In this document: one piece after another, positions 40,549 through 46,808 of the stretch
Layout: the number at the start of each line of letters is the position of its first letter
Position numbering within the stretch: position 1 is the first letter of the stretch
Assembly (NCBI GenBank): GCA_964016885.1
Contig: OZ024744.1
Span: 97,588,001-97,652,000, forward strand
Length of the DNA: 64,000 nt
Reading direction: 5' to 3'
Source: Eledone cirrhosa
Lineage: Eukaryota
Position numbers and translations under genes: made by a program
The notes under the pieces: model-generated
The model's input: the letters and a program-made list of their open reading frames with translations, nothing else
Told to the model about the DNA's origin: nothing
The model's database searches: none

Positions 40549-41720
40549 TACTGGGAAATGGTCGTGCTCGGTGTGTAGGAAAGGCGTAGGTAGAAACTCC
40601 ATTTTATGTCCTAAATGCAAAGTATGGGTGCATAAAAGATGTAGTGGGATCACAGGTAAGCTAACTAAGAACATAGATTTTACATGTGGCCGGTGTTCTG
40701 GTGCAATAAGTAGCAGCAAGTGCCCACAGAATACTAGCTCTTTCAATTGCGCAGAGGGTTCTATAGAAATATATGCTGATTTTATCGCCGTTACCTGGGC
40801 GATAAAATCAGCAGTGGGGGAGGGTGCTCTGAAAGTACTGTAGCTAGAGTCAGAACTGGTTGGAAAAAGTTCAGAGAGCTTATACCACTATTAGCTGCTA
40901 AAGGGTTCTCCCTAAAAATGAAAGGCAGGTTGTACGATGCCTGCATACGAACAGCAATGTTGCATGGCAGTGAGACCTGGGCATTGTGTGCAGAGGATAT
41001 ATGCAGACTAGAGAGGAATGAAGCTTGCATGCTCCGCTGGATGTATAACAGTAATATACGTGAACGGCAAAGCATAAACGAACTAAGGAAAAAATTAGAG
41101 ATAAGAGGGATCAGATGTTGTTTACTCGAGAGAAGGCTACGTTGGTATGGACACGTGATGCGCATGAAAGTCGATAGCTGTATAACAAAGTGCAGGGCAA
41201 TAAAGATAGACGGTAGCCACGGAATAGGCAGACCTAGAAAAACCTGGGACGAGCTGATAAACTCCGACCTCACACACTTACACCTCTCCAAGACAATGTC
41301 ACTGGACCGAGACCTTTGGCGGTACTCAGTAACAGAGAAGACCCGCCTTGCCAGTAGGCATCTCTAACAAAATACACCCCGTCCCGCCACCACCCCCACC
41401 CCATCCACACCACCCCGTTCTATGTAAAGTTATGTTGGTGCCACACCATCCAGGCCGAAACAAATGAGATTGTGTAGGTGTTACGACAAAAAAACACACA
41501 GTCCACGCTGTAATGTGGCCGTGTAGGCAACACGGTAAAAACCTCCCAGACCCACACTGTAAATGTGGTTGGTGTTAGGAAGGGCATCCAACTGTAGAAA
41601 ACCTGCCAGACAGTCCTATGCGAGCAAGACAATCACTCTTGCCTCAAGTGGGACTACCCCCGTCCAAACCCATGCAAGCGTGGAACACGGACGTTAAACG
41701 TTGATGATGATGATGATGAT
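40549..41720 (+). mobile_element. RTE LINE 3' part, subfamily with a long 3' UTR
   Basis: GKWSCSVCRKGVGRNSILCPKCKVWVHKRCSG, KGRLYDACIRTAMLHGSETW..LRWYGHVMR..GRPRKTW..DRDLWR* (41367). The UTR has 2-3 diverged 48-bp units and a (TGA)n tail. Confidence 0.9.
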
Positions 41721-41737
41721 ATATATATATATATATT

Positions 41738-42074
41738 GTGGAGGCACATGGCTTAGTGGTTCCTTGCAATCGAAAGGTTGTGAGTTCAATTCTCAGACCG
41801 GGTGATGTGTTGTCTCCTTGAGCAAGACACTTTATTTCACATTGCTCCAGTTTACTCAGCTGTAGAAATGAGATGATAGGGACTGGGGTCCATATCATTC
41901 CACTGCAAAGTAGTCATGGAGGTGCCACGGCAAAACAACACCCAGCACTCACTGTAAATGAGGTTGGTGTTAGGAAGGGCATCCAGCTGTAGAAATCAAG
42001 CCAAAACCAGTTCCCGTCCCACCCTTGCAAGCAGGGAAAAGCGGACGTAAAATGATGATGATGATGATGATGAT
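41738..42074 (+). mobile_element. Chimeric SINE (family B head, hairpin, 48-bp unit, RTE tail)
   Basis: Collinear with the copies at 52211, 61193 and 63415. Small deletion in the tRNA-like head. Confidence 0.85.
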
Positions 42075-42159
42075 TATATATTATATATCTTATATATCTT
42101 TTGTTGCATCACCAGTCGGGTCTCTTTGAGCCAATCCCCTGCGAAACACACGTAACTGG

Positions 42160-42520
42160 TATACATATATATATATATATATATATATATATGTGTGTGT
42201 GTGTGTGTATGTATATATATGTATATATATACACACACACATATATATATATATATATATATATATATATATATATATATATATATATATATATATATAT
42301 ATATATATATGTATATATATATATATATATATATATATATGTATATATATATATATATATATATATATGTATATATATATATATATATATATGTATATAT
42401 ATATATATATATATGTATATATATATATATATATATATATATATATATATATGTATATATATATATATATATATATATATATATATATATATATATATAC
42501 ATATATATATATATATATAT
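42160..42520. repeat. Long (TA)n microsatellite
   Basis: Read directly. Source of the YIYI ORFs. Confidence 0.95.
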
Positions 42521-42606
42521 GCAAAAGATCTATTTAAAGTTGTTGGGATACAACAAGTAAATATTTTTATAACTGATATAAAGCACTCGACAAGTATTTG
42601 GAGTAG

Positions 42607-42921: not shown

Positions 42922-43799
42922 ATATATATATATATATATATATATATACATATGTATATATATATATATATATATATATATATATACATATGTATATAGT
43001 AGCTGTGAAGCTAAATCTATTTGCTTACTGTGGCAGGCTGGCTAAAATGGTTTCACTCATATTTTACAATTTAATCAATAATTCACCTATACTTTATATA
43101 AATGAGACCAAAAATTGTATTTTATATAAATTTCATTTATAATCATAATTATGATGTTAATATAAATATAGTAAACTATTTCTCTCTCATAATATTGTTT
43201 CTACTTTAGGCACAAGGCCAGCAATTACCCAGTGCATTACTGGTACTTCATAATATTGATAGTCTTTACTTAAGTTCATTGCAAATTTTTACAACAATCT
43301 GAGCAATCTAGGTATTTTCTGCTATAATCATTACAGGATGTTAAGAGATAATACTACACATTTTCACAACAATCTGTCCACTAGTAAAAGTACCATAAAC
43401 ATTTGAATTAACAGAGTCTTTTTAGATATTTGCTGTTTAATCATTATAGAGAATTAACTGGAAATCTAAATTCAGAAAACTTTATAAGTCTTTAGATATT
43501 TTGAAAACTTTGTTAAATGCCAATTTTTCTGTAAAATAGAAAGAAGACAACTAACTTAAAACTATAATAATTTTGATTCACTATTTAATGAGCTAGGACA
43601 TGTGAAAATTGTGTTAAGTAAATTTTTCAATAGTGTATTTTTCAATTAGATGAATATTTGGGTGAAGTTATGGGGAAGAATTAGTTTCAAGTTTTAACAT
43701 AAATGCAAAAATTTATAGAAATACATTTCTTCTATCAAACTTATGTCCTCTGGAATTGTCAAGCATTAAGAATAATGAATGATTATGTAGTTTATGTGA

Positions 43800-44110
43800 A
43801 GATACATGGCATAATGGTTAGAGAGTTGGGCTGACAATCATGAGATTGTGAGTTTGATTCTTGAATCGGATGGTGCATTGTCTCCTTGAACAAGACACTT
43901 TAATTTTTTCACATTGCTTCAGTTTACTCAGATGTAGAAATGAGTTGTAACATCATTGGTGCCAAGTTGTATAGGACTTTCACTTGGACAACATTGTTGG
44001 CATAGAGAGGGGAGACTGGTATGTGTGGATGACTGCTGGTATTTCACAAAACATGTTGCTTGGGCTTGTACCTCAGAGGGGAACTTGTAAGTACAAGACT
44101 CATTATCATT
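43800..44110 (+). mobile_element. CORE-like SINE (family B head, third tail type)
   Basis: Head as in family B, then gtagaaatgagttgtaacatcattggtgccaag, shared with 27995-28165. Confidence 0.65.
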
Positions 44111-45339
44111 CATGACTGATTTACTTATTATGTTGTTTACAAAATGAAAGAAATATAATAGCTTAGTGGATGTGGTTCTTAAACCCTTTGATACCAAAAC
44201 TGCCTTTGGTTCTACAAAACAAAGCCACACATTTTAAATAGTTCCTATTTAAATTAAAATCTTTGAACAAAGTTTTATATAAGAACCATATGAAATAATT
44301 AATAATTTTAGTAAATCTCTCAAAATTCTTAATTAATTGAGATTTCATTAGAAATACAATCTTGAGAGGGTTAATTCTAAGCAACCAGCTGCTTGTGAGA
44401 TTAAAAGTTTGTACGCATTACTGCATTTGCTCAAGGTTAGTAGCAGAGTGGTAGAAATGTGAGAATTTGAGATAAAATTCTTTGTAATATTTTACAAATA
44501 TTCTCAGTTCAAATCTCACCAGGGTTGTTGTAGTCTATCTTCCCAATCTATTAACCCACATCAATAAAATAAGTACCAATAGTTTACTGGTATTCATTGC
44601 TTTATTAATATATTATTTAGTTATGTATATAGGTACAAATGTATTTTTCTTGTATTATTTATTTTGGTGGATTGGCAGAATCGGTAGAGGGTCGGACACC
44701 ATGCTTTGCAGCATAGAGTTACGCCCCTTTGCAGTATGAGTTCAAATTCCGCCATGGTTAACGTTGCATTTCATCCTTACAGGGTTGATGAAATAAAGTA
44801 CCAGTAATACACAGAGATAATTGCTGGCCTTGTGCCAAAAGTAGAAACAGTTATATATTTCAAATCTTTACATTCTAAGTTCAAATCCTGTCAAGGTTAA
44901 TTTTGCATTTCATTCTTCCAAAGACAATAAAATGAAGTTTCCAATCAATTACTGGGGGTAGCACAAAGCCACCAATATTTATCCAAACACTTTAGGGTGG
45001 TGGATTGACAGAATTGGTAGATCATCAGATAAGATACTGCTGTGGTATTTGTTCTGGCTCTTTAAAATTCGGGTTCTTTAACATTCTGAGTTCAAATCTC
45101 GCCCAAGATCAATTTTGCCATTCATCCTTCCAAGGTCAATAAATAACATAAAGTACCAGTTTAACACTGGGGTCAATTTAATCTACTTTCCTTTCTCTTA
45201 AATTGCTCACTTTGGGCCTAATTTTTTTTTTTTTTTCAGCTTTGAATATATATATAATGTTAAGATACAAGTTAGATTTGATATGTATTTGAGGTTTGGT
45301 GATAGTGAGTTTGTTTAGTGGTTTAGAGCACTTTACAAG

Positions 45340-45509
45340 CTCACCCCTGTGGCCTGCACAAAGGTTTTTACAGCGTGAGCATGTTTTGTCCTTGTAATAT
45401 AAAATTTAAAAATTAGTTGTAATGTGCGCAATTAGTTGTCATGTGTGGCACTCAGACAACACATATGTGACCTATGTGGTCCTTGGGGACCCTCAGTTTG
45501 ACATGCCTG
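45340..45509. mobile_element. hAT MITE, same family as 26129-26634, with one 31-bp unit
   Basis: Reverse-complement match including ctcagacaacacatatgtgacctatgtgg and the terminus tttgacatgcctg. Confidence 0.75.
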
Positions 45510-45564
45510 GCTTAGAGTACAGTGTGGACTTAAAGATATGTTGTGGATGCATTTAAATACATCC

Positions 45565-46808
45565 TCATCATCATCATCATCATCATCACCGTTTTACGTT
45601 AATGTTTCCACGCTAGCATGGGTTAGACAGGTTCTCCTGTTTTGTGCAATGCCAGGTCAGGTGATCATGTCTTGCTCATACAGAACTGATTCTGGCTCGA
45701 TTTCTACAGCTGGATGCCCTTCCTAACACCAACCTCATTTACAGTGTGGACTGGGTGCTTTTTGTCATGACACCTTCATGATCACTTTACAGACTGTACT
45801 GGGTGCTTTTTGTCGTGACACCTACATGACCACTTTACAGTGTGTACTGGGTGCTTTTTGTCATGATACCTTCATGACCACTTTACAGTGTGTACTGGGT
45901 GCTTTTTGTCATGACACCTTCATGACCACTTTACAGTGTGTACTGGGTGCTTTTTGTCGTGACACCTACACGAACACTTTACAGTGTGTACTGGGTGCTT
46001 TTTGTCATGACACCTACATGGCCACTTTACAGTCTGTACTGGGTACTTTTTGTCATGACACCTTCATGACCACTTTACAGTGTGTACTGGGTGCTTTTTG
46101 TCATGAACACTTTACAGTGTGAACTGGGTGCTTTTTGTCATGTCACCTACAAGACACTTTACAGTCTGTATTGGGTAATTTTTGTCATGTCACCTACACG
46201 ACCACTTTACAGTGTGGGCTGGGTGTTTTTTGTCATGACACCTACATGAACAATTTACAGTGTGGACTGGGTGCTTTTTGTCATGACACCTACACAACCA
46301 CTTTACAGTGTGGACTGGATGCTTTTTGTCATGCCACCTACACGACCACTTTACAATGTGTATTGGGTGCTTTTTGTCATGACATCTACACGATCACTTT
46401 ACAGTGAGTACTGGGTGCTTTTTGTTGTGACACCTATATGACCACTTTACAGTGTGGACTGGGTGTTTTTTGTCGTAACACCTACATGGCCACTTTGCAG
46501 TGAGTACTGGGTGCTTTCTGTTGTGACACCTACATGACCACTTTACAGTGAGTACTGGGTGCTTTTTGTCGTAAGACCTACATGGCCACTTTGCAGTGAG
46601 TACTGGGTACTTTTTGTTGTGACACCTACACAACCACTTTACAGTGTGGACTGGGTGCTTTTTGTCATGACACCTACACGACCACTTTACAGTGGGAGTG
46701 GCATGGGGGCATACTGTGTATATGCTTCAGCTTTGGCTTCAGCTTGTACCCGTGGGAAGTGGTGTCTTCTGTATTACTGCGTAACACCAGAGGTCTCGGT
46801 CCTGTCTC
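45565..46808 (-). mobile_element. RTE 3' end with an expanded 48-bp array (~20 units) in its UTR
   Basis: Minus strand reads DRDLWCYAVIQKTPLPTGTS*, then the array (46693-45738), then the conserved tail and (TGA)n. Confidence 0.88.

What the first reader, a model, noticed from the sequence alone, without database searches (positions are those of the whole stretch)
40549..46808. An RTE LINE whose 3' UTR carries and spreads an expandable 48-bp minisatellite
At 41367-41720 the RTE stop codon is followed by 2-3 diverged 48-bp units and a conserved tail. At 46808-45565 (-) the same kind of C-terminus (DRDLW..KT) is followed by ~20 units and the same tail. Arrays at 8847-9427, 36627-37300 and 59928-60380 end in that tail too and are truncated on the 5' side. 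Inference: these minisatellites are retrotransposed UTRs whose unit number ranges from 1 to ~20.
Basis: partly seen in the sequence, partly recalled or inferred. Interest (0 to 1): 0.72.

Follow-up and report, generated by a model that had tools for sequence, protein, structure and literature searches.

The report
LINE tail seeds growing, swapping minisatellites
A family of jumping genes carries a 48-letter repeat, usually once or twice, in its tail, and at many sites in this animal's genome that repeat now stands as arrays of ten to nearly 4,000 copies, mostly still capped by the tail, likely because it multiplied in place after each copy landed and likely traded pieces with neighbouring arrays.

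Summary
A LINE ORF end, 48-bp units and a shared (GAT)n-ended tail are linked as described, and all four window arrays end in the tail. The interpretation needs correcting. Young full-length copies carry two units (20 of 20) and the second family mostly 0-3 (28 of 30). Arrays reach about 3,900 units (188 kb), still tail-capped, far beyond a roughly 4-kb element. Duplicated copies of one insertion hold 38 and 25 units. So retrotransposition spreads a short seed (117,889 exact tail cores), and long arrays most likely grow in place. The scan reported this seeding before on other DNA of this genome. Plant Ogre 3'UTR satellites and reptile SINE-derived satellites are precedents. New here: three window arrays look as old as their tails and share rare unit variants. 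One 30-mer occurs only twice in 3 Gb, in two arrays 28 kb apart, and one 32-mer three times, twice here. That points to unit exchange between neighbouring arrays, from post-hoc motifs. Long arrays being mobilised whole is neither shown nor excluded. No function is shown.

The parts
40549..41367 (+). 5'-truncated copy of young LINE family A: PHD finger (frame from 40550), frameshift, ORF C-terminus (40780-41364), stop 41365-41367
   Evidence: Pfam PHD E 2.3e-07; 150 listed genome hits at 98-100% aa identity, some with frames over 1,000 aa; full-length relatives are EN+RT+PHD
41368..41471 (+). family A 3'UTR spacer
41472..41553 (+). two diverged 48-bp units of family A
   Evidence: 2 units in 20 of 20 ORF-selected copies
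41554..41720 (+). shared tail: conserved core, family-specific middle, LINE-type 3' end, (GAT)n; (TA)n on both sides of the copy
   Evidence: 117,889 exact core matches genome-wide
41740..42080 (+). SINE-like element with one unit (41901-41948), the same core and a short LINE end
46695..46806 (-). family B head: last ORF codons (DRDLW..KT) plus spacer
   Evidence: ORF match of 30 aa or more runs into this head in 21 of 30 loci
45747..46694 (-). 20-unit array in the family B 3'UTR
45561..45746 (-). family B tail ending in (GAT)n
8855..9427 (-). 12-unit array without head; A-like tail at 8679-8854
36626..37293 (+). 14-unit array without head; B-type tail at 37294-37487; lies between two NIDO exons
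   Evidence: NIDO at 19559-19963 and 39174-39350
59941..60367 (-). 9-unit array without head, locally homogenised; diverged tail at 59759-59940
8890..8919 (-). rare unit variant (30-mer) present only here and at 37225-37254 in the whole genome
   Evidence: the exact shared run is 41 bp
37225..37254 (+). second and only other genomic copy of that 30-mer, in the penultimate unit as in the 8855 array
8927..8958 (-). rare unit variant (32-mer) shared with 46239-46270; 3 matches genome-wide
46239..46270 (-). second window copy of that 32-mer, inside the 20-unit array
56033..56336 (+). truncated A-like 3'UTR with 2 units and tail
   Evidence: 88% over 309 bp to the A UTR
40051..40217 (-). A-type tail alone, truncated at the unit boundary
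   Evidence: 95% over 167 bp
17626..17844 (+). one unit plus tail, truncated
52200..52609 (+). SINE-like element with 2 units
61190..61543 (+). SINE-like element with 1 unit; weak tRNA-like head
   Evidence: Rfam tRNA 18.9 bits, E 0.26
63414..63760 (-). SINE-like element with 1 unit
23087..23287 (-). about 4 units of an older, related unit type, with a diverged tail at 22892-23070

Best explanation
Several related RTE-like LINE families and a SINE-like element carry one or two copies of a 48-bp unit just before a shared 3' tail, and the arrays of 9 to about 3,900 units mostly sit at that exact spot, likely having grown in place after insertion and likely exchanging units with neighbouring arrays. 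Steps: (1) Shown: unit and tail are part of the 3'UTR of young full-length elements and are spread genome-wide. (2) Shown: masters differ slightly (1-3 units, a 112-bp duplication), and such variants recur at unlinked loci. (3) Inferred: the unit start repeats about 12-14 bp at the tail start, so one or two units are a ready substrate for slippage or unequal exchange in DNA. A minority of inserted copies then expand, homogenise and fix private variants. (4) Inferred, weaker: nearby arrays copy short tracts into one another by non-allelic gene conversion or template switching, which makes some arrays mosaics. No host function is proposed.
For: Seed: 20 of 20 full-length A copies picked by ORF alone have 2 units; B-head loci have 0:1, 1:9, 2:16, 3:2, 17:1, 20:1 units, n=30 including the window copy. 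In 94 systematically spaced 10-kb blocks, 48 of 63 unit-bearing elements have 1-2 units. Growth in place: the C1 array spans 187,861 bp (~3,914 units) and ends in core, end and (GAT)n in the right polarity. A ~205-unit C19 array has both B head and tail. One insertion duplicated on C12 (flanks 1356/1396 and 2347/2439 identical) has 38 versus 25 units. Within-array distance is below between-array distance in 53 of 53 array pieces (medians 0.076 vs 0.147). The nearest unit is in the same array for 592 of 825 units against ~21 expected. Nearest-unit distance over half tail distance is below 0.5 in 23 of 32 arrays and at most 0.20 in 16, against 0.67 for 9 two-unit copies. Exchange: a 30-mer occurs 2 times in 3 Gb, both in window arrays 28 kb apart with opposite orientation and different tail types; a 32-mer 3 times, 2 here. 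A control motif shared by a window array and a distant one occurs 798 times. The 8855/36626 pair has the longest pair-private run (38 bp) among the 25 top-ranked of 1,770 array pairs, and the two arrays are each other's best partner among 41.
Against: Only 1 of 5 evaluable arrays of 8 or more units in the systematic sample has a tail; two of the four others are an older unit type and two end at (TA)-rich junctions. 3 of 21 arrays from the internal-unit query have neither head nor tail. Six of 32 arrays (12-20 units), including window 8855, 36626 and 45747, have units as diverged as their tails (ratio 0.93-2.08), which fits arrays long from the start. In the window, the nearest unit is in the own array for only 1 of 12, 1 of 7, 5 of 16 and 5 of 9 units. 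Between-array distances include subfamily differences, and the 53 pieces include several from one array. Exchange motifs were chosen after seeing the alignments. The third has 16 matches. None of 7 close pairs in other loci shares a private 20-mer. On variant-pair sharing the three window pairs rank only 7, 29 and 67 of 861. About half of the C1 array was read (nine full 10-kb blocks plus both ends), and no long reads check it.
Confidence: 0.8

Rival explanations
1. Long arrays (about 10-20 units) are made during or before retrotransposition: either a master carries them, or the reverse transcriptase re-primes on the two-unit direct repeat and stutters, often ending inside the array.
For: Six of 32 arrays, all 12-20 units, have units as old as their tails. 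12 of 21 long arrays have no recognised head. Masters do pass on UTR duplications, and two unlinked SINE-headed copies have 3 units.
Against: No long array in 20 of 20 young copies. No convincing sibling pair by unit order among 946 and 378 pairs, although that test is weak (paralog control z about 2.0). It cannot give 10-188 kb arrays or the 38 vs 25 paralogs. The shared rare variants of the three old-looking window arrays are local, not dispersed as a master's would be.
Confidence: 0.13
2. A pre-existing satellite donated the unit to the LINE, and arrays spread mainly by DNA routes (extrachromosomal circles, conversion) independent of LINE insertions.
For: Some arrays lack head and tail (3 of 21; 4 of 5). 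An older related unit type forms tail-less arrays and a 120-bp array. Family C LINEs lack the unit, so it was gained or lost once.
Against: Even the 188-kb and 10-kb arrays sit in register in a LINE 3' end. No array has a tail joined in reverse polarity; the reverse hits are separate neighbours. Giant arrays carry different private variants.
Confidence: 0.05
3. The very long arrays are inflated or mis-joined in the assembly.
For: No long reads were laid. Short-read contigs do not span even the 20-unit array.
Against: Units within the C1 array differ by 5-9%, so they are not collapsed copies. Unique flanks are seen at both ends. Unit words are very deep in three listed runs of the same coded organism. 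Array sizes form a continuum.
Confidence: 0.04

Closest known systems
Satellites from tandem repeats in the 3'UTR of Ogre LTR-retrotransposons (Lathyrus FabTR families, PMC7004042, passages read; pea PisTR-A via review PMC9659126, passages and table)
   Same: Short tandem repeat in a retroelement 3'UTR, dispersed by transposition, occasionally expanded in place into long arrays still in register with the element.
   Different: Here a non-LTR element and a SINE-like element in an animal; one unit shared across several families; the seed is only 1-2 units; arrays are scattered over many chromosomes rather than confined to primary constrictions.
SINE-derived satellites of squamates (PMC10702118, abstract and Discussion read)
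   Same: Tandem repeats of an internal segment with the retroposon terminus kept at one end; many independent loci; up to about 1,000 units; long loci reported as mostly subtelomeric.
   Different: The source here is mainly an autonomous LINE 3'UTR; arrays reach about 3,900 units; I found no link between array length and homogeneity (rho -0.16, p 0.26).
Interlocus spread of Rsp-like and 1.688 euchromatic satellites in Drosophila (PMC7403614, passages read)
   Same: Small dispersed arrays proposed to exchange repeats by interlocus gene conversion or circle re-integration.
   Different: Here recipients are retroposon-seeded arrays and the signal is variants private to arrays 10-37 kb apart; evidence comes from one window.
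RTE-2_OV of Octopus vulgaris (PMC9115989, passages read)
   Same: Single ORF of about 1,100 aa with endonuclease, RT and a zinc finger; long 5'UTR; microsatellite at the 3' end.
   Different: Its 3'UTR is described as mostly microsatellite starting at the ORF end, with no 48-bp unit mentioned; no sequence comparison was possible, so identity with family A is untested.
RTE-derived bodies and tails of SINEs, including Ceph-SINEs (PMC5786205, passages and part 2 of 5 read)
   Same: A tRNA-like head joined to LINE-derived 3' parts.
   Different: There the SINE middle comes from the RTE 5'UTR; here unit and core are absent from about 700 bp upstream of the ORF in family A copies and come from the 3'UTR.

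Membership tests
RTE-clade LINE | Single ORF with APE endonuclease followed by reverse transcriptase (definition recalled) | tested here: met
   1,084-aa ORF with Exo_endo_phos 74-291 and RVT_1 604-804 in 2 of 2 copies scanned; no search for a separate ORF1 beyond viewing about 700 bp upstream
RTE-clade LINE | 3' end in a short tandem repeat, not poly(A) (PMC9115989: microsatellites common in RTE) | tested here: met
   (GAT)n 322-341 bp after the stop in 20 of 20 copies
RTE-clade LINE | Placement in the RTE clade by RT phylogeny | not tested
   The 120 listed homologues (45-57% identity) carry no clade names; no named reference sequence was on hand
RTE-clade LINE | Frequent 5' truncation and target-site duplication | tested here: inconclusive
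   Truncation is plain; no target-site duplication above 7 bp at 4 window arrays, and only (TA)n around copy A
Retroelement-UTR-derived satellite (Ogre/FabTR type) | Same unit present as a short array at a fixed place downstream of the coding region | tested here: met
Retroelement-UTR-derived satellite (Ogre/FabTR type) | Continuum from short to satellite-size arrays still joined to the element | tested here: met
   0 to ~3,900 units
Retroelement-UTR-derived satellite (Ogre/FabTR type) | Related species have the element but not the satellite (direction of origin) | not testable with these tools
   The genome has no relatives held
Retroelement-UTR-derived satellite (Ogre/FabTR type) | Parent is an LTR retrotransposon | tested here: not met
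   The parent is a non-LTR element; it works like this kind but is not a member
tRNA-derived SINE | tRNA-like head | tested here: inconclusive
   Rfam tRNA 18.9 bits, below gathering score 29, E 0.26; ARAGORN found none
tRNA-derived SINE | 3' tail shared with a partner LINE | tested here: met
   The SINE end matches the short end of family C LINE copies; unit and core match families A and B
Interlocus gene conversion between arrays | Short tracts of rare variants shared by non-allelic arrays with unrelated flanks | tested here: met
   motifs chosen post hoc
Interlocus gene conversion between arrays | Sharing falls with distance across many loci | tested here: inconclusive
   3 of 13 near pairs vs 89 of 1,757 far pairs share 5 or more private 20-mers, all three in this window

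The most novel reading that the evidence does not exclude
About 10^5 LINE and SINE insertions plant the same 48-bp seed across an animal genome; hundreds to thousands grow independently into mini- and full satellites, and arrays lying within tens of kilobases form local exchange pools that trade units regardless of orientation or LINE subfamily. Satellite birth, growth and interlocus concerted evolution could then be measured as a function of insertion age and distance within one genome.
Probability: 0.45. Interest if true: 0.68.

Novelty: new variant of a known kind. Interest (0 to 1): 0.52.

Why it matters
How dispersed repeats become satellite DNA is usually argued from end points. Here every stage from 0 to about 3,900 units stays attached to a datable LINE tail in one assembly, giving a large replicated series for testing expansion rate against age, subfamily, unit identity and chromosome position. 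If the local sharing of rare variants is general, the same set measures interlocus conversion against distance. The route itself is known from plants and reptiles, and no host function is shown.

Tried and rejected
No RNA holder listed for family A, so nothing is said on expression. Laying short-read contigs of 4 runs on the 20-unit locus gave no spanning contig and no allele length. Unit-order tests for sibling long arrays gave no clear pair and had little power. RNA folding of tail and units was not notable (z -0.41 to -1.85, 5 sequences). The idea that the tail core comes from the LINE 5'UTR, as in PMC5786205, was rejected for family A: no unit or core within about 700 bp upstream of the ORF in 19 of 20 copies, and the one hit is a separate neighbouring element. 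No clear higher-order period in the C1 or C18 blocks; a weak one (43 units) in C27. The ends of the C27 array (at least 51 kb) were not reached. The 40 candidates of a second internal-unit query could not be read in context. A first ORF-upstream test returned nothing through a script option error and was redone. Rows dropped before the age test: 5 of 37 (four without a true tail, one cut by the locus edge). Literature: nine searches listed no paper on this unit or on LINE-UTR satellites in cephalopods. The curated O. vulgaris repeat paper (PMC13282606; part 1 of 3 and passages) has no word starting 'satellite' or 'minisatellite' in its main text; its supplements and repeat library were not seen and may hold this unit. 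Subscription journals and Repbase were not searched.
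Full report
1. Observation. The window is G000:C28:97588001-97652000 in a 3.0-Gb animal assembly. Its repeats resemble those of octopods, which is my recollection and was not determined. Copy A runs 40549-41720: a PHD finger (Pfam E 2.3e-07), a frameshift, the ORF C-terminus with stop at 41365-41367, a spacer, two diverged units, and a tail ending in (GAT)n. Copy B (46806-45561, minus) keeps only the last ORF codons (79% over 53 bp to A), then 20 units and the tail. Arrays at 8855-9427, 36626-37277 and 59941-60367 have 12, 14 and 9 units, a tail in the same polarity, and no head. 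The description is accurate.

2. The carriers. Family A is young and abundant: 40 scored DNA hits at 91-100% and 150 listed protein hits at 98-100%. I fetched 20 of those 150, chosen for open frames of 1,085 aa or more. All 20 have two units and 322-341 bp from stop to (GAT)n. The ORF is 1,084 aa with endonuclease, RT and PHD. That architecture is common among 1,659 homologues, the 120 listed being 45-57% identical and unnamed as to clade. Family B is older (85-88% to the window head). Among 30 loci the unit counts are 0:1, 1:9, 2:16, 3:2, 17:1 and 20:1, the last being the window copy, and 21 of 30 have an ORF match running into the head. Further head variants precede other arrays. A SINE-like element carries 1-3 units plus the core. 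A third LINE family in the window (67% aa identity to A over 335 aa) has neither unit nor core. The exact tail core occurs 117,889 times. A 112-bp UTR duplication is shared by two unlinked A-like copies, and 5 core pairs 106-112 bp apart appear among the first 100 listed matches, so masters do pass on small duplications.

3. Census and polarity. In 94 systematically spaced 10-kb blocks (0.94 Mb, weighted to small chromosomes) there are 63 unit-bearing elements: 29 with one unit, 19 with two, 9 with 3-7 and 6 with 8 or more. A same-polarity tail follows in 23 of 29, 18 of 19, 8 of 9 and 1 of 5 evaluable cases. Two of the four tail-less long arrays are an older unit type and two end at (TA)-rich junctions. 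Of about 39 other places hit by an internal-unit query I resolved 21 at both ends: 15 have the tail, 9 a head, 18 one or both, 3 neither. Reverse-polarity hits are separate neighbouring elements. Pooled, 16 of 26 long arrays found without regard to the tail keep it.

4. Long arrays mostly grew in place. An exact three-unit pattern matches 10,600 times. One array on C1 spans 2,295,283-2,483,143 (187,861 bp, about 3,914 units). It starts without a head and ends in core, end and (GAT)n. Nine 10-kb blocks inside are all array; the rest is inferred. A C19 array of about 205 units has B head and tail, a C18 array of about 380 has neither, and a C27 array exceeds 51 kb. A duplicated C12 segment with 96-97% identical flanks holds 38 and 25 units. 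Units are closer within than between arrays in 53 of 53 pieces, and 592 of 825 units have their nearest neighbour in their own array. Relative to tail divergence, units are much younger in 23 of 32 arrays (two-unit copies give 0.67, n=9).

5. The exception, and the new lead. Six of 32 arrays look as old as their tails, three of them in this window. These three share rare variants out of order. A 30-mer in the penultimate units of arrays 8855 and 36626 occurs exactly twice in the genome. An adjacent 32-mer shared by 8855 and the 20-unit array occurs three times. A third motif occurs 16 times and carries little weight. A motif shared with a distant array occurs 798 times. The arrays differ in orientation, tail type and flanks, so copying between neighbours is the simplest reading. 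The motifs were picked after inspection, none of 7 close pairs in other loci shows the effect, and a variant-pair statistic ranks the window pairs 7, 29 and 67 of 861. My rough estimate, assuming a few hundred thousand units genome-wide, is that two such local hits would arise by chance with probability of order 0.01 or less; this is reasoning, not a computed null. Array 36626 lies between two NIDO exons on the minus strand; whether all three lie in one gene was not established.

6. Mechanism. Shown: unit and tail belong to the 3'UTR and are spread as a 1-3 unit seed; long arrays sit in register; unit number changes after insertion. Inferred: the unit start recurs at the tail start, giving a direct repeat for slippage or unequal exchange; expansion and homogenisation are DNA-level; neighbouring arrays exchange tracts. 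Open: whether some 10-20 unit arrays were made at insertion. Sibling tests found none but were weak.

7. Known work. The route matches Ogre 3'UTR satellites (PMC7004042 passages; review PMC9659126 passages and table, where 'RTE' does not occur) and squamate SINE-derived satellites that keep the retroposon end (PMC10702118 abstract and Discussion). Interlocus exchange is proposed for Drosophila euchromatic satellites (PMC7403614 passages). An octopus RTE of similar build is described without this unit (PMC9115989 passages). Nine searches listed no paper on this unit; supplements were not seen. Earlier notes of this scan reached the same seeding reading on other DNA of this genome, and two notes proposed copying between neighbouring LINE copies for other repeats. 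They are not independent support.

8. Verdict. Real feature; first reading partly right. New variant of a known kind, notable for scale and for the local-exchange lead. Interest 0.52.

Noticed in passing
window 40550-40700 (+); L292:1117-4368: The LINE ORF has a PHD finger directly after the RT core (residues 820-863 of 1,084); many listed homologues have the same RT+PHD pairing.
   Followed up: partly
family A loci L001-L030, L288-L307: Family A copies often end directly in (TA)n: 11 of 26 parsed by a strict test, and many more TA-rich. Possible preference for (TA)n targets; no null was computed.
   Followed up: partly
window 40600-41720: Sequencing runs coded as 17 organisms hold part of family A (shares 0.30-0.88; 0.5 or more for three organisms).
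   Followed up: no
window 10207-11304, 16460-16700, 23087-23287; L177, L241, L224:7625-8078: An older relative of the unit forms its own arrays, including a 120-bp, 9-copy array that contains the unit end and the start of the core.
   Followed up: partly
window 19559-19963 and 39174-39350 (-): Two exons of a nidogen-like (NIDO) gene about 19 kb apart.
   Followed up: partly
window 53194-55407, 21946-22285, 35789-36249 (+): A sister LINE family whose ORF runs almost straight into the short 3' end; the SINE-like element uses this end but carries the unit and core of families A and B, so it looks chimeric.
   Followed up: partly
window 3656-4186 (+), 20950-21633 (+), 28160-28522 (-): Fragments of a Tc1-type transposase, a zf-RVT LINE end and another RT.
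   Followed up: no
window 13228-14260, 15077-15359, 26158-26506, 46974-47080, 47566-48124: Other minisatellites of 85, 36, 31, 22 and 143 bp with 91-96% matches; origins not examined.
   Followed up: no
G000:C27:11990004-12041000; G000:C18:13274416-13292635; G000:C1:10883439-10896500: Further arrays of the same unit of at least 51 kb, 18 kb and about 13 kb, each with its own private variants.
   Followed up: partly
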